From Candidatus Latescibacterota bacterium (GTDB lineage: Bacteria; Latescibacterota; UBA2968; GCA-2709665): a stretch of 64,000 nucleotides of DNA. This document shows positions 17,545-21,156 of this stretch, one piece after another (position 1 is the first letter of the stretch; every line of letters starts with the position of its first letter). Below the pieces are notes generated by a model, which saw only the letters and a list, made by a program, of their open reading frames with translations, had not been told where the DNA came from and ran no database searches. The stretch lies in contig OZ220733.1 in NCBI GenBank assembly GCA_965116875.1, forward strand, positions 2,208,001 to 2,272,000, given 5' to 3'. Made by a program: the position numbers and the translations under genes.

Positions 17545-18522
17545 CTATAAGAACAAGATCCCGGTTAACGCCAGGTACGCGCCGTATATCGCAAGCAACA
17601 CGACTCCCTCGATCCGGGTCAGCCGGTGCCCCGTGCGCATCATGATGAGCATCGCGAAAACGATCACCAGCATCGCCGGGAATGAAAAGTGGATTACCTT
17701 TTGCGTCACCACGAGCGGATTGACCACCGCGGATGCGCCGGCGATCCAGCAGATATTCAGGATATCCGCTCCCAGGATATTGCCGACCACGATCTCGCCG
17801 TGCCCTCTCCTGGCGGCCGTGACCCCGGTGGCGATCTCAGGCAACGACGTGCCAATGGCAATCACCGTGAGCGCAATCACCGCTTCGCTGACGTCCAACG
17901 CCTTGGCGATGACCACGGCGGATTCCACGATAAAATGACTTGAAATCAGCACCCCCACCAGTCCCACGCAGAACCAGAGCATCAATGTCCCGAGACCTCG
18001 ACCCTCGATGGACGCCTCGATCTCCTTGAGATCCTCCATCCGGTTCCCTTCAGCCTCGGATGAACGACTGCGTGTGACGTAGGTAAAGACCGTGTACGCC
18101 ACGAAGAGCAGGAGCAGCACGCCGCCCTCGATCCGGTCCAGCGTGCCGTCGAACGCCATCCCGTAAGCCGCCAGATCTACGACGACCAGAAAGATTCCCG
18201 TCGTCCACAGCAGATACGGATTGATGAGGATGGGCGACCCGGCCACGAGGACGCCCAGCGCGAGCGCGACGCCGTCGTCCACGATCACGGACCCGATGGC
18301 ATTGCCAAGCGCCATCTCGGGATGGCCCTCGAGTGCGGCGAGTACTGAAACCGCCAGTTCGGGTGAGGTCGTCGCTAGGCTCACCAGCACGATGCCGATC
18401 AGCATTTTCGGTACGTTCAGGAATTCGGCAATCCCTACGGCTCCGTCCACAAACCAGGACGCGCATTTGGAAAGCACCGCGAAACACACCGCAAGAACGC
18501 AGACTGCAACCGTTATACTCAT
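17545..18522 (-). CDS. Calcium/sodium antiporter (YrbG/CaCA family)
   Basis: Two alpha repeats ATTSPEL...GNAIGS and GTSLPEI...GNILGADILN; multiple TM helices. Confidence 0.9.
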   Translation of the reverse strand: MSITVAVCVLAVCFAVLSKCASWFVDGAVGIAEFLNVPKMLIGIVLVSLATTSPELAVSVLAALEGHPEMALGNAIGSVIVDDGVALALGVLVAGSPILINPYLLWTTGIFLVVVDLAAYGMAFDGTLDRIEGGVLLLLFVAYTVFTYVTRSRSSEAEGNRMEDLKEIEASIEGRGLGTLMLWFCVGLVGVLISSHFIVESAVVIAKALDVSEAVIALTVIAIGTSLPEIATGVTAARRGHGEIVVGNILGADILNICWIAGASAVVNPLVVTQKVIHFSFPAMLVIVFAMLIMMRTGHRLTRIEGVVLLAIYGAYLALTGILFL

Positions 18523-18607
18523 ATAAAACAATCCTTTATCAGTCTATACAGACGCTCGCCACCTGGCCGGCGCAGCGGGCTTCGACGGCCGTGGCGGAAC
18601 GCGCCGC

Positions 18608-20929
18608 TCATCTGCCGGCCACCCGCGCCACCCAGATGCTGAATTCGTAAAGCAGTACCAGCGGCAGCGCCATCATCAGCTGGGAGATTGGATCCGGCGG
18701 CGTGAGCAGCGCCGCCAGGACAAAGCCCACCACCACTGCATACCTCCTGCCGCGGCGCATCAGTTGCGCGGTCAGCAGGCCGATCCGGCTCAGGAAGAAC
18801 GCCGCCACCGGCAGTTCGAAAACGACACCGAAGGCAACCAGCAGCCTCAACACGAAACCGATGTAGAAGCCGATGTCGAACTGGGGTTCGACTCCGGTCC
18901 CTTCGCCGATCAGAATCAGGAATCGAAACGACAGCGGCACCACGCTCACGTAAGCGATAGCGCCCCCCAGAACAAAACAGATCGAGGATGAAAAGACGAT
19001 AAAAGATACGTACCGCCGCTCGGTTGTCAACAGACCCGGCGCAACGAAGATCCACAGTTGATACAGGAGAACCGGCAACGCCAGGACCGCACCGCCGACA
19101 AGGGCAATCTGAAGTTTGACGAGAAACATCCCCATCGGTTTCAGATAAATCAGCTTGACGGGCGGCTCAACGGGCGCCACCCCCAACAGCTTCATGACCG
19201 GGGTCGCCTCCCGGACCGGCAGCACGAGCCACCCGAGAATTTCGTCAGAAAATATCCCGCAGATTATTGCGCCGACAACAAGCGCCGCCAGCCCCTTCAG
19301 CAGGCGCCAGCGGAGTTCCTCCAGATGGTCCAGGAAGGGCATCGCGCTGTCGTCGGCGCCGGAAGACGGTTCCGGCGCGGGTTCCGCGGACGTGTCGGCG
19401 TCGGGGGGCAGAATGGAATGCTCTGCAACCACCGCGCGACGGCGGAAGGCCATCAATACCAGGACGGCGCCCAGGACCATGCAGATCTGCGCGAAAAGGT
19501 CTCCGTACCTCGTATAGAACGTCTTTGCGGTTCGCGGCGTGACTCCCTGCGTCAAAACTGCCGGATGGAAGATCCCCGTTGTCCCCGACTTCCGTCCCCA
19601 GGCGTCGATAAACGTGGAAACGCCCGTGTTCGCGCAGCGTACCACGGCCCGCCGGTTCTCGATGGCGCGAAACACCGCGGCCTCGGCATGCTGATAGGGT
19701 CCGGAGGTTCGGCCAAACCAGCCATCGTTGGTGATGATCACCAGGAATTCAGCGCCCCGGTCCACAAATGACCTGACGAACCCCGGAAAGACCGAATCGT
19801 AACAGATCAACGCGGAAAACCGGGCGTCGGGACCGTCGAAGACCGTACGGGTCTCTCCGGAGTCCCAGTTGCCCCCAACGAATCCGCCCCCGGTGAACCG
19901 GATTTTTCGCAGGAAAGGGAGTATTGCCGGGAACGGCGCCCGTTCGCCGAAGGGCACCAGGCGAGTCTTGTCGTAGTATCCGGAGATCCCTTTTCCGGGC
20001 ACGAACAGAAAAGAGGAGTTGAACACCTTCACCGGGTCGCCGGCTTCCAGTCTGTACGCGCCCGTGTAGAGGTAGATCCCGAGCGAGTCCACCATTGCCT
20101 GCACCCGCTCGCGGTGGCGCCGGTACAGTTCTCCCTCAAGATAGCCGACCGCTGTCTCGGGCCACACCACAAGCCGTGCCCCCTGGCCCGCGGCTTCCGC
20201 GGTCATTGGCTTCAGTTTGCCGAAATTGTAGTCAAATCCCCGGTATTCCTTGGCCACCGGCGGCATATCCGGCTGGACCAGGCCCACCGCCACGGCCTGT
20301 TCGTCCGGAACGTTCTTCAGCGCCAGGTACCCGTTCGCCGCCGGTCCCGCGAAAAGTACGGCCAATGCGGCTGCCCACACCCGGCGCCGCGCCCGGTTTC
20401 TCCAGAGCATCATGATGCTCAGATTGACAAGCACAATCCAGAACGATACCCCGTACACGCCCGTCACTTCCGCATACTGGATCAGCCACAGATAAGCGGT
20501 CTGCGAGTTTCCCAGCACCACCCAGGGAAACCCCATGTCGCCCAGAGAGTTGAAATACTCGAACCCCACCCAGAGGAACGGCGCGCTCCACGTCCCCGCA
20601 GTGCCGTACCGCCTGACGACGTGGGCGAACGTCCACAGGAACAGACCGCGGAACAGGGACATGTAAATCGCCGCCCCGGCCATGCCCGGCGGCGTGACTG
20701 ATCCGATCCAATAGAGTGTCGTTCCGTAGAAAAAGATCCCCTGGACGAACCCGGCGCCGAAGGCCGCCCGGCCGCGCAGCCGTTCCGCGGAGACCAGCAA
20801 CGGGACCAGCGCGACGTAAGACAGGAAGCCGAGAGGCAGCGGCGGAAACGCCGCGCCGAGGACAAGGCCCGAGACCGCCGGAAACAACGCCAACCATTTC
20901 CAGTCCATACCCTGTCGTGCCTCGGTCAT
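18608..20929 (-). CDS. lnt-tatC: Fused apolipoprotein N-acyltransferase Lnt (N-terminal) and twin-arginine translocase subunit TatC (C-terminal, from Met at 19342)
   Basis: Lnt triad motifs WPETA, YDKTRLVPFGE, LICYDS plus ITNDGWFG; then MPFLDHLEELRWRL, QLWIFVAPGL..TER, FELP, TPPDPISQ of TatC; no stop between them. Confidence 0.9.
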   Translation of the reverse strand: MTEARQGMDWKWLALFPAVSGLVLGAAFPPLPLGFLSYVALVPLLVSAERLRGRAAFGAGFVQGIFFYGTTLYWIGSVTPPGMAGAAIYMSLFRGLFLWTFAHVVRRYGTAGTWSAPFLWVGFEYFNSLGDMGFPWVVLGNSQTAYLWLIQYAEVTGVYGVSFWIVLVNLSIMMLWRNRARRRVWAAALAVLFAGPAANGYLALKNVPDEQAVAVGLVQPDMPPVAKEYRGFDYNFGKLKPMTAEAAGQGARLVVWPETAVGYLEGELYRRHRERVQAMVDSLGIYLYTGAYRLEAGDPVKVFNSSFLFVPGKGISGYYDKTRLVPFGERAPFPAILPFLRKIRFTGGGFVGGNWDSGETRTVFDGPDARFSALICYDSVFPGFVRSFVDRGAEFLVIITNDGWFGRTSGPYQHAEAAVFRAIENRRAVVRCANTGVSTFIDAWGRKSGTTGIFHPAVLTQGVTPRTAKTFYTRYGDLFAQICMVLGAVLVLMAFRRRAVVAEHSILPPDADTSAEPAPEPSSGADDSAMPFLDHLEELRWRLLKGLAALVVGAIICGIFSDEILGWLVLPVREATPVMKLLGVAPVEPPVKLIYLKPMGMFLVKLQIALVGGAVLALPVLLYQLWIFVAPGLLTTERRYVSFIVFSSSICFVLGGAIAYVSVVPLSFRFLILIGEGTGVEPQFDIGFYIGFVLRLLVAFGVVFELPVAAFFLSRIGLLTAQLMRRGRRYAVVVGFVLAALLTPPDPISQLMMALPLVLLYEFSIWVARVAGR

Positions 20930-21074
20930 CGTGCCGGTTCCTCCGAACCCGTCCGCCGGGATTTCACCTGCCCCGGCTTCACGATTCAGGTTGGACGAAA
21001 GAAAAACCGGTTGGACGCAAGCAGTGAGTCCCGCAAACCGGTCTGATTGAACCCCGCCCCATTATCAAAGACAG

Positions 21075-21156
21075 AATATACGCGAACGAACCCTGTTGTC
21101 AAACCAGTACCATTCACGCTCACCCGCTTGACAAGCCAGGGGGATTTCCATAATTT
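21075..21156. promoter_or_regulatory. Back-to-back divergent sigma70 promoters (lnt-tatC on minus, bioF on plus)
   Basis: Plus: TTGACA(21128)-N17-TAATTT; minus: TTGACA(21102)-N16-TATATT. Confidence 0.55.

What the first reader, a model, noticed from the sequence alone, without database searches (positions are those of the whole stretch)
18608..20929. Single-chain Lnt-TatC fusion: lipoprotein N-acylation physically linked to the Tat translocase
Seen: one uninterrupted 773-codon ORF encodes a full Lnt (catalytic E-K-C motifs WPETA, YDKTRLVPFGE, ICYDS, final TM helix then RRR), a ~30-aa Pro/Ala/acidic linker (about 19343-19440) and a full TatC (HLEELR, F..PGL...E, FELP, TPPD all intact). No Shine-Dalgarno sequence precedes the internal TatC Met, and no tatA/tatB lies in the window. 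Established: Lnt performs the last step of lipoprotein triacylation and ends in the cytoplasm; TatC is the twin-arginine signal receptor and starts in the cytoplasm, so the topologies are compatible. The Lnt fusion I know of is mycobacterial Lnt-Ppm1; I do not know a described Lnt-TatC. Inference: a dedicated export-and-maturation unit for folded Tat-dependent lipoproteins, or simply enforced 1:1 stoichiometry/co-localisation.
Basis: partly seen in the sequence, partly recalled or inferred. Interest (0 to 1): 0.88.

Follow-up and report, generated by a model that had tools for sequence, protein, structure and literature searches.

The report
Natural Lnt–TatC fusion membrane protein
One gene here really does encode a lipoprotein-acylating enzyme (Lnt) joined by a floppy linker to the Tat export receptor (TatC); the join is conserved across a whole bacterial order but looks like a tolerated merger of two neighbouring genes, not a dedicated machine.

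Summary
Window 18608-20929 (minus strand) is one 773-codon ORF. It holds a complete Lnt (residues 1-497), a 32-residue acidic/proline linker (498-529) and a complete TatC (530-773). Both modules pass curated family cut-offs and keep their key residues. It is the genome's only lnt and only tatC; tatA, lgt and lspA lie far away.

It is not an assembly error. All 53 genomes of the window's order carry the fused frame, and contigs from four sequencing runs cross the junction without indels.

Elsewhere in the class, lnt and tatC are mostly tightly adjacent separate genes. On a tree of 85 loci the fused state falls into four separate clades, and one fused clade is sister to genes with an in-frame stop. 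In other classes of the phylum the two genes are unlinked. Linkers are unconserved and predicted disordered.

My crude screen found about 126 lipobox proteins but only 1-2 credible Tat-lipoproteins.

Best reading: two autonomous modules merged repeatedly by stop-codon loss. A dedicated Tat-lipoprotein unit is not supported. I found no description of this fusion in the searchable literature. Databases simply label it Lnt.

The parts
18608..20929 (-). Whole lnt-tatC fusion ORF, 773 codons plus a TGA stop at 18608-18610
   Evidence: A GGAGGA Shine-Dalgarno-like motif lies about 10 nt before the ATG at 20929.
19439..20929 (-). Lnt module, residues 1-497: the membrane domain, the periplasmic nitrilase-like domain and the last transmembrane helix ending in FRR
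   Evidence: TIGR00546 at 318.6 bits. It aligns to E. coli Lnt chain 5xhq over residues 17-508, E 3.7e-35. AF2 pLDDT is mostly above 90 over 10-495.
20420..20872 (-). LNT_N membrane domain (Pfam PF20154), residues 20-170
   Evidence: E 1e-32.
19586..20284 (-). CN_hydrolase catalytic domain (PF00795), residues 216-448. Triad codons: E258 at 20156-20158, K321 at 19967-19969, C376 at 19802-19804.
   Evidence: The triad aligns to E267, K335 and C387 of E. coli Lnt (residue names from PMC3850990). All three are invariant in 103 fusion proteins. Coordinates checked.
19439..19498 (-). Last transmembrane helix of Lnt (residues 478-497, LFAQICMVLGAVLVLMAFRR), which exits to the cytoplasm
   Evidence: AF2 helix 478-495; aligned to the C-terminal helix of E. 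coli Lnt. The cytoplasmic side is inferred from the RRR and from the known Lnt topology (recalled).
19343..19438 (-). Linker, residues 498-529 (RAVVAEHSILPPDADTSAEPAPEPSSGADDSA): acidic and Pro/Ala-rich, predicted disordered
   Evidence: pLDDT below 50 over 499-528. Not conserved across A1 or A2. Linker length is 16-116 aa in 31 fused loci.
18611..19342 (-). TatC module, residues 530-773, complete from the position of the native Met1 of Aquifex TatC. Signal-binding residues: E538 at 19316-19318; F628..E637 at 19019-19048.
   Evidence: PF00902 covers profile 1-208 of 208. TIGR00945 at 200.8 bits. 4b4a residue 1 aligns to M530. E15, F94, P97, L99 and E103 of chain 9dzz_A align to E538, F628, P631, L633 and E637.
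21075..21102 (-). Promoter-like site (TTGACA, 16 nt spacer, TATATT; 11 of 12 matches) about 145 nt upstream of the ORF start. No such site lies between the two modules.
   Evidence: This is a consensus match only, not evidence of function.

Best explanation
This is a genuine bifunctional inner-membrane protein. It arose when the stop codon between two tightly linked, co-oriented genes (lnt, then tatC) was lost.

The Lnt module has its membrane domain and a periplasmic nitrilase-type domain with the Glu-Lys-Cys triad. It should carry out the third step of lipoprotein maturation, N-acylation. The TatC module should act as the twin-arginine signal-peptide receptor, working with the single unlinked TatA.

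Lnt's last helix ends in the cytoplasm and TatC starts there, so a 32-residue disordered acidic tether can join them without disturbing either fold.

Shown: the ORF is real, both modules are intact, the fusion is fixed in the window's order, the linker is variable, and fused and split forms interchange among relatives.

Inferred: the two modules work independently; the fusion brings at most co-translation, co-insertion and 1:1 dosage; and it is neutral or only mildly useful, with no new chemistry.
For: Both modules are complete and pass curated cut-offs.

Functional residues are kept. Lnt E258, K321, C376, E329 and Y377 align to E267, K335, C387, E343 and Y388. TatC E538, F628, P631, L633 and E637 align to E15, F94, P97, L99 and E103. 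All are invariant in 103 fusion proteins.

This is the sole lnt and sole tatC in a one-contig genome. tatA, lgt and lspA are present elsewhere.

The fusion is fixed in 53 of 53 genomes of the order. In one search, 39 of 41 genomes show one uninterrupted match; the exceptions are G019, split across contig ends, and G029, broken near the Lnt N-terminus.

I classified 85 loci with my own HMMs:
- window's order: 13 of 13 fused;
- sister family f4: 18 fused, 30 adjacent-split (40-220 nt from the lnt stop to the TatC domain), 2 with 1.4-1.9 kb between the genes, 5 with no lnt upstream;
- f3: 2 adjacent-split, 1 with none;
- ten other families: 0 of 14 with lnt upstream.

In 18 genomes of those other families, lnt and tatC lie on different contigs or megabases apart.

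On the tree, the fused state occupies 4 clades, each with support 100*, and needs at least 4 changes. Holding the 18 fused f4 rows together costs 333 lnL, p-AU 6e-6.

The fused clade of genus g25 is sister to four g25 genes with an in-frame TAG or TGA right after Lnt's last helix. In those genes a tatC start lies 1-2 codons after the stop.

The linker has pLDDT below 50. Across 31 fused loci it is 16-116 aa, 67.5% P/E/D/A/G, and unconserved between clades.

No conserved SD precedes M530. One fused relative (L115) has ATA at that codon, and its genome shows only one TatC match.

There is experimental precedent: engineered TatB-TatC fusions joined at TatC residue 2 support Tat transport in E. 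coli (PMC5102672, passages).

There is a natural parallel: Lnt+Ppm is one protein in M. tuberculosis and BCG but two adjacent genes in M. smegmatis and C. glutamicum (PMC3850990, passages).
Against: No protein-level or activity data exist. Everything about function is inferred from sequence.

lnt→tatC adjacency is kept across a whole class, and the fusion has been retained without a single fission in 53 genomes of the order that have diverged to about 55% identity. By 'Rosetta stone' logic that could reflect a real functional link that I cannot see.

The E. coli-essential W237 is replaced by Glu (E228, with Tyr next to it) in the window's order, although relatives in f4 keep Trp. E389 is Asp here. 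Lnt activity is therefore plausible but not certain.

The tree is a 'quick' IQ-TREE run with SH-aLRT support only and long outgroup branches. I named the AU-test group after seeing the tree.

The direction of change (gain or loss) rests on parsimony and on the outgroup state, not on a rooted model.
Confidence: 0.7

Rival explanations
1. The fusion reflects functional coupling. On this reading, the Lnt-TatC protein is a dedicated or preferential station where Tat-exported lipoproteins, or Tat signal peptides more generally, are passed from the receptor to the lipoprotein-maturation enzymes.
For: lnt→tatC adjacency is conserved in most sampled loci of the class: 13 fused plus 50 of 58 loci in f3 and f4 that are fused or adjacent. 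Fusion recurred at least 4 times and has been held in 53 of 53 genomes of the order. At least one credible Tat-signal protein with a lipobox-like cysteine exists, an MsrP homologue (TIGR01409 24.1 bits and PF10518 24.3 bits, LAGC), plus a second plausible one. TatC's cytoplasmic N-terminus, where the tether attaches, cross-links to Tat precursors (PMC3712464, passage).
Against: This is the only Lnt and the only TatC, so it cannot be dedicated. There are about 126 lipobox-only candidates against 1-2 credible Tat-lipoproteins (crude screen). Lnt is the third step, and lgt and lspA are unlinked. Lnt's active site faces the periplasm, while the tether and TatC's signal-binding site are cytoplasmic. 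The linker is disordered, unconserved and 16-116 aa long. Close relatives do without the covalent link.
Confidence: 0.15
2. The fusion exists only at the gene level. On this reading, TatC is also or mainly produced as a separate protein, either by internal translation initiation at the conserved Met530 or by proteolytic cutting of the disordered linker.
For: M530 is invariant in 103 fusion proteins. It aligns with the native start Met of Aquifex TatC, and it is the start in some split relatives (L099 and L101). A long disordered linker is an easy protease target.
Against: The window has no SD-like motif before M530, and 0 of 11 g25 fused genes have one. Yet 48% of this genome's first-ATG starts have such a motif, against 17% at an in-gene control position. 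No promoter-like site lies between the modules. Fused L115 has ATA (Ile) at that codon, and its genome has a single TatC match. In many split relatives tatC starts 20-30 codons upstream and the Met is still conserved, so its conservation does not require a start-codon role. Proteolysis is untested.
Confidence: 0.12
3. The single ORF is an assembly or sequencing artefact, a missed stop or indel between two ordinary genes.
For: Nothing beyond the prior that fused membrane-protein genes in metagenome-derived genomes are sometimes errors. Two singleton read-throughs of that kind were seen elsewhere (L064 TatC+NadA and L149 Fe-S protein+TatC).
Against: The fused frame is present in 53 of 53 genomes of the order. 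119 of the 120 listed database clusters carry CN_hydrolase+TatC. Contigs from four runs in four studies cross the junction without indels.
Confidence: 0.01

Closest known systems
Mycobacterial two-domain Lnt-Ppm protein (Rv2051c / BCG_2070c, 'Ppm1')
   Same: Lnt is the N-terminal module and a second envelope-biogenesis protein follows in the same ORF. Related species (M. smegmatis MSMEG_3860/3859, C. glutamicum) keep the two as adjacent separate genes. Deleting the Lnt domain left Ppm activity intact, so the modules are autonomous (PMC3850990, passages read).
   Different: The partner there is a polyprenol-monophosphomannose synthase, not TatC. No Ppm or glycosyltransferase domain is found here. 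Here the partner is itself a six-helix membrane protein and the core of a translocase.
Engineered E. coli TatB-TatC fusion proteins
   Same: A membrane protein's cytoplasmic C-terminus is joined through a short linker to the N-terminus of TatC (at TatC residue 2). Some of these arose in a mutant screen, and the fusions still support Tat transport (PMC5102672, passages).
   Different: Those are laboratory constructs that join two Tat components. Here the tethered protein is an unrelated enzyme of about 500 aa with several membrane helices and a periplasmic domain, fixed in nature across an order. This genome shows only one TatA/B-family match.
Canonical stand-alone Lnt (E. coli, PDB 5xhq, 5n6h and others) and stand-alone TatC (Aquifex 4b4a/4hts; chain 9dzz_A)
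   Same: Each module aligns end to end with its solved counterpart and keeps the catalytic or signal-binding residues.
   Different: The two are covalently joined. W237 of E. coli Lnt is Glu here, E389 is Asp, and TatC Y100 is Leu.
Other Lnt fusions in the representative library
   Same: Lnt tolerates extra modules at either end: Lnt-SNase (P0188), PAP2-Lnt (P0192), Lnt-LEA_2 (P0249), and two with unassigned C-terminal extensions of about 330-350 aa (P0145, P0153).
   Different: I did not follow up how widely any of these is conserved. None has TatC as the partner.

Membership tests
Apolipoprotein N-acyltransferase (Lnt; TIGR00546, PF20154+PF00795) | N-terminal polytopic membrane domain (LNT_N) | tested here: met
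   PF20154 at residues 20-170, 113.9 bits against a 27.1 cut-off. AF2 places helices through 10-204.
Apolipoprotein N-acyltransferase (Lnt; TIGR00546, PF20154+PF00795) | Nitrilase-superfamily domain with the Glu-Lys-Cys catalytic triad (E267, K335, C387 in E. coli) | tested here: met
   PF00795 at residues 216-448. E258, K321 and C376 align to the triad (triad named in PMC3850990) and are invariant in 103 sequences.
Apolipoprotein N-acyltransferase (Lnt; TIGR00546, PF20154+PF00795) | Other residues essential in E. coli Lnt (W237, E343, Y388, E389) | tested here: inconclusive
   E343 aligns to E329 and Y388 to Y377, both kept. E389 aligns to D378, a conservative change. W237 aligns to E228, not kept in the window's order although f4 relatives keep Trp. 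Functional mycobacterial Lnts also keep only 5 of these 7 residues (PMC3850990), so these four are not strictly family-defining.
Apolipoprotein N-acyltransferase (Lnt; TIGR00546, PF20154+PF00795) | Equivalog-level score and the pathway context (Lgt and LspA present) | tested here: met
   TIGR00546 at 318.6 bits against a 132.9 cut-off. Lgt is at C1:1375413-1376144 and LspA at C1:48266-48670.
Apolipoprotein N-acyltransferase (Lnt; TIGR00546, PF20154+PF00795) | N-acylation of apolipoproteins (enzymatic activity) | not testable with these tools
   This needs lipoprotein mass spectrometry or complementation of an lnt depletion strain.
TatC (PF00902, TIGR00945) | Full-length TatC core | tested here: met
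   PF00902 covers profile 1-208 of 208 at 228.2 bits. TIGR00945 at 200.8 bits against a 132.7 cut-off. The module aligns to Aquifex TatC 4b4a residues 1-231. AF2 places helices through 532-772.
TatC (PF00902, TIGR00945) | Cytoplasmic signal-peptide-binding residues (E15; F94, P97, L99, Y100, E103 of E. coli) | tested here: met
   E538, F628, P631, L633 and E637 are kept; Y100 aligns to L634 (residues named in PMC3712464). All but L634 are invariant in 103 fusion proteins.
TatC (PF00902, TIGR00945) | A TatA-family partner in the genome | tested here: met
   There is one PF02416 match at C1:5005365-5005511, a small TatA-like ORF. No second TatA/B-family match was found with this family model.
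TatC (PF00902, TIGR00945) | Twin-arginine-dependent export (activity) | not testable with these tools
   This needs complementation of a tatC mutant or transport assays. 39 Tat-only signal candidates in my crude screen suggest the pathway is in use.
Lnt-Ppm1-type two-domain proteins | C-terminal polyprenol-phosphate-mannose synthase (glycosyltransferase) domain | tested here: not met
   Pfam finds only LNT_N, CN_hydrolase and TatC, plus a sub-threshold DUF7534 hit. The protein has the same layout as that family but is not a member.

The most novel reading that the evidence does not exclude
The covalent Lnt-TatC link is functional. Tethering Lnt to TatC's cytoplasmic N-terminus, which forms part of the signal-peptide-binding face, would organise a membrane microdomain where the Tat receptor and the lipoprotein-maturation enzymes work side by side. 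Alternatively, the Lnt module could act as a structural scaffold for a TatB-less TatC oligomer. Either would mean this order runs a Tat receptor complex whose architecture differs from the TatBC model, with an acidic tether next to the twin-arginine binding site.
Probability: 0.15. Interest if true: 0.8.

Novelty: new variant of a known kind. Interest (0 to 1): 0.5.

Why it matters
TatC is thought to work as an obligate oligomer (PMC5102672). Here nature supplies a TatC that, as the organism's only copy, must assemble and bind signal peptides with a roughly 500-residue membrane enzyme tethered to its N-terminus.

That makes a useful natural constraint on models of the Tat receptor complex. It also offers a ready-made matched set, because fused, in-frame-stop and split genes occur within one genus. 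With that set one can ask whether covalent linkage changes Tat or lipoprotein function.

It is also a clean example of recurrent gene fusion by stop-codon loss between membrane proteins of compatible topology.

There is an annotation consequence. These proteins are labelled only 'apolipoprotein N-acyltransferase', so genome surveys can wrongly score such organisms as lacking tatC.

If the link proved functional, it would be the first physical connection between the Tat pathway and lipoprotein maturation.

Tried and rejected
**Docking of the two modules.** Complex prediction on Lnt 1-497 against TatC 528-773, each with the 103-row alignment, returned 'no answer': ipSAE 0.00 and 0.00, and the controls were not run. 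I do not count this for or against binding.

**RNA evidence.** No RNA holder was listed for the stretch, so nothing can be said about transcripts or internal 5' ends.

**Literature.** Six full-text searches found no paper describing an Lnt-TatC fusion. I checked passages of PMC3827258, a TatC diversity survey; it lists one Gemmatimonadetes genome as 'C <-> A' and has no occurrence of 'fusion' or 'fused'. I also checked passages of PMC11573676 and PMC13721041. The phylum-level lipoprotein survey of Sutcliffe et al. 2012 (PMC4875425) is the paper most likely to have noticed the fusion. It is not held, so I could not check it. Supplementary tables of PMC3827258 (TatC lengths per genome) were not opened and could bear on prior notice. 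InterPro could not be queried.

**Fusion outside the phylum.** L046 (Ignavibacteriaceae) appeared to match query residues 5-557, but it holds no TatC motif or HMM hit, so I rejected it. Of the 79 named loci, 45 were TatC-only (44 from records labelled Calditrichota, KSB1, Marinimicrobia, Zixibacteria, Cytophagia, Lentisphaeria or just 'bacterium') and 7 were Lnt-only. None of these had the other gene within the 4-kb flanks. Distant fusions scoring below about 395 bits would not have appeared among the 150 rows listed, so absence elsewhere is not shown.

**In-frame stops.** I considered whether in-frame stops are enriched among adjacent-split genes. They are not: 7 of 30 in f4, below the one-third expected by chance. 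Only the four g25 genes that are sister to a fused clade carry weight.

**Long stop-to-stop TatC frames.** The long frames in L049, L069 and L150 are Arg-rich upstream reading frames, not fusions.

**Limits of the Tat/lipobox screen.** It uses a home-made greedy ORF caller (3772 genes) and regular expressions. Two of its four Tat+lipobox hits (L183, L184) are not credible. The counts are rough.
Full report
**1. What is there**

The window holds one uninterrupted 773-codon ORF on the minus strand, 18608-20929.

Pfam finds LNT_N (residues 20-170), CN_hydrolase (216-448) and a complete TatC (534-756, covering profile 1-208 of 208). NCBIfam gives equivalog-level scores for both lnt (TIGR00546, 318.6 bits against a 132.9 cut-off) and tatC (TIGR00945, 200.8 bits against 132.7).

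The Lnt part aligns end to end with E. coli Lnt (5xhq residues 17-508). The TatC part aligns with Aquifex TatC from its very first residue, with 4b4a Met1 on query M530.

An AlphaFold2 model built on 103 homologues has mean pLDDT 82.7 and pTM 0.68. It shows two confident modules, 10-495 and 532-772, separated by residues 499-528 at pLDDT below 50.

A GGAGGA motif precedes the ORF's ATG, and an 11-of-12 promoter-like site lies about 145 nt upstream. Neither an SD-like motif nor a promoter-like site precedes the internal Met530.

**2. Functional residues**

- Lnt: E258, K321 and C376 align to the E. coli triad E267, K335 and C387. E329 and Y377 align to the essential E343 and Y388. E389 is Asp here. 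W237 is Glu (E228) in the window's order but Trp in more distant fused relatives (residue list from PMC3850990, passages).
- TatC: E538, F628, P631, L633 and E637 align to E15, F94, P97, L99 and E103. Y100 is Leu (residues from PMC3712464, passages).
- The triad and the TatC residues are invariant in 103 fusion proteins.

**3. Genome context**

The genome is one 5.45-Mb contig. The fusion is its only TatC match and its only LNT_N match. Other pathway genes are far away:

| Gene | Position on C1 |
|---|---|
| tatA (single small gene) | 5005365 |
| lgt | 1375413 |
| lspA | 48266 |

The immediate neighbours are a Na/Ca exchanger and a sugar dehydratase downstream, and a divergent class I/II aminotransferase upstream.

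**4. It is real**

The whole-protein search over 41 genomes of the order matched all 41. In 39 the match was one frame without stops. G019 is split across contig ends and G029 is broken near the Lnt N-terminus.

With the TatC part alone, all 53 genomes of the two families of the order have the match inside a 713-841 aa open frame; G019, at 506 aa, is cut by a contig end.

In the 5.8-billion-protein collection, 119 of the 120 listed hits to the junction region carry CN_hydrolase+TatC, and 115 of those also carry LNT_N. Where named, they are called 'apolipoprotein N-acyltransferase' or 'hypothetical protein'.

Contigs from four sequencing runs in four studies cross the junction with no indels, though X1 may be the window's own source.

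**5. Distribution and history**

The phylum set holds 168 genomes in 14 families. Public records of fused loci are labelled variously Candidatus Latescibacterota, Gemmatimonadota, Gemmatimonas or Gemmatimonadaceae.

I fetched 85 loci and classified them with HMMs built from my own alignment:

| Group | Fused | Adjacent but split | Other |
|---|---|---|---|
| Window's order (f1, f2) | 13 of 13 | 0 | 0 |
| Family f4 (55 loci) | 18 (g25 11, g31 5, g30 2) | 30 | 2 with 1.4-1.9 kb between the genes; 5 with no lnt within about 2.7 kb (one at a contig end) |
| Family f3 (3 loci) | 0 | 2 | 1 with no lnt upstream |
| Ten other families (14 loci) | 0 | 0 | 14 with no lnt upstream |

In 18 genomes of those other families, the lnt and tatC matches lie on different contigs or megabases apart.

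In the wider listing, 70 of the 73 f4 matches were shown. Of these, 31 sit in frames of 801-983 aa and 39 in frames of 185-521 aa.

A tree of the Lnt and TatC modules, with the linker excluded, puts the fused state in four clades, each with support 100*. At least four changes are needed, and starred branches alone force four. Forcing the 18 fused f4 rows together costs 333 log-likelihood units, p-AU 6e-6; I named that group after seeing the tree. Rows group by genus code, as expected for vertical descent.

The fused g25 clade is sister to four g25 genes in which a TAG or TGA follows Lnt's last helix in the same frame, and a tatC start lies one or two codons later.

The simplest history is an ancestral, translationally coupled lnt→tatC pair in the class that fused several times by stop-codon loss. 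The fusion became fixed early in the window's order.

**6. The linker**

Across 31 fused loci the linker is 16-116 aa; in the order it is 31-50 aa with a median of 33. It is 67.5% P/E/D/A/G and net acidic. It is unconserved between clades, and in g25 it is expanded by DHD.E-type repeats.

Split relatives keep an acidic leader of 20-30 residues on TatC.

**7. Testing the coupling idea**

My crude genome-wide screen gave 126 lipobox-only, 39 Tat-only and 4 Tat+lipobox candidates. Of the four, an MsrP homologue passes the curated Tat-signal models and has LAGC. A heparinase-like protein has TRREFLR...LAAGC but no model hit. The other two are not credible.

This is the sole Lnt and sole TatC, lgt and lspA are unlinked, and Lnt's active site faces the periplasm while the tether is cytoplasmic. 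A dedicated Tat-lipoprotein unit is therefore not supported. A weaker form of coupling cannot be excluded.

**8. Internal initiation**

M530 is invariant, but:
- it lacks a conserved SD, although this genome uses SD-like motifs at 48% of first-ATG starts against 17% at a control position;
- one fused relative has ATA at that codon, and its genome has a single TatC match;
- the Met stays conserved in split genes whose start lies upstream.

**9. Comparison with known systems**

The closest natural analogue is the mycobacterial Lnt-Ppm two-domain protein, which is split into adjacent genes in M. smegmatis and C. glutamicum (PMC3850990).

The closest experimental analogue is the functional engineered TatB-TatC fusion (PMC5102672).

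In the 1.84-billion-representative library, only 2 of the 150 listed hits (out of 59,849 with E ≤ 0.001) match the profile end to end: P0036 and P0102, at about 1190 bits. The next hit is an Lnt-only protein at 604 bits. Both were confirmed as three-domain proteins. Other Lnt fusions also occur: SNase, PAP2 and LEA_2.

I found no paper describing Lnt-TatC. Sutcliffe et al. 2012 could not be read.

**10. Verdict**

The fusion is genuine, ancient in this order and recurrent in its class. The most likely mechanism is two autonomous modules on one chain (confidence about 0.7). The dedicated Tat-lipoprotein reading is not supported.

It is a new variant of known kinds. It is of moderate interest, chiefly as a natural constraint on Tat receptor architecture and as a caution for annotation.

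Noticed in passing
L158, L159 (family f10); also L048, L053, L063: TatC genes of family f10 carry an acidic, low-complexity N-terminal extension of about 175-200 aa before the conserved MPFLDHLEE block. The open frames are 407-430 aa in six genomes (G063, G052, G053, G051, G061, G060). Similar leaders of 100-150 aa appear in KSB1- and Calditrichota-labelled loci. An acidic N-terminal leader on TatC may be a wider trait of this part of the bacterial tree.
   Followed up: partly
L149:127-1785 (-) (G065, family f12): An RnfB-like Fe-S protein (FeS and Fer4 domains) reads in frame, without a stop, straight into a complete TatC, giving a 553-aa frame. Four other genomes of the same genus have TatC frames of 282-291 aa. 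This is probably a singleton read-through or an error.
   Followed up: partly
L064:3956-6013 (+) (record labelled Caldithrix sp.): TatC (residues 24-234) and quinolinate synthase NadA (342-676) lie in one 686-aa open frame. This is a singleton that I did not check in relatives.
   Followed up: no
P0188, P0192, P0249, P0145, P0153: Other Lnt fusions occur among the best library hits: Lnt-SNase, PAP2-Lnt and Lnt-LEA_2. Two further proteins of 826 and 842 aa have C-terminal halves of about 330-350 aa that match no Pfam family.
   Followed up: partly
window 20243-20251 (residues K227-E228-Y229): The Trp that is essential in E. coli Lnt (W237) is Glu in the window's order, with an aromatic residue one position later. 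Fused relatives in family f4 keep 'KW'.
   Followed up: partly
L112, L113, L162, L163, L166 (genus g25 linkers): The linkers contain tandem acidic-histidine repeats (DHD.E / DHE.E type) that vary in number between species: linkers of 16-28 aa have none, and linkers of 45-57 aa have several. His/Asp-rich repeats could bind metal; I did not test this.
   Followed up: no
L127 (G106, g23) and L138 (G104, g21): lnt and tatC are on the same strand but separated by 1.9 kb and 1.4 kb, so something has been inserted between the usually adjacent genes. I did not examine the intervening DNA.
   Followed up: no
G029:C1:5245443-5247709: In this one genome of the order, the fusion gene matches in two overlapping pieces (query 9-95 and 54-771). 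That suggests a frameshift or duplication near the Lnt N-terminus, not at the junction.
   Followed up: no
window 19003-19030 (-): A promoter-like site (TTGACA, 16 nt spacer, TATCTT; 10 of 12 matches) lies inside the TatC coding region, about 470 nt upstream of the Na/Ca-exchanger gene (17545-18531, minus strand). This is a consensus match only.
   Followed up: no
L182 (G000:C1:1564807-1565904, minus strand): An MsrP (methionine-sulfoxide reductase catalytic subunit) homologue has a model-confirmed Tat signal followed by a lipobox-like LAGC. It may be a Tat-exported lipoprotein.
   Followed up: partly
window 18500-21100, runs X3 and X4: Contigs 95-99% identical to this gene occur in runs recorded as coral reef and sponge metagenomes, so close relatives live in such samples.
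   Followed up: partly
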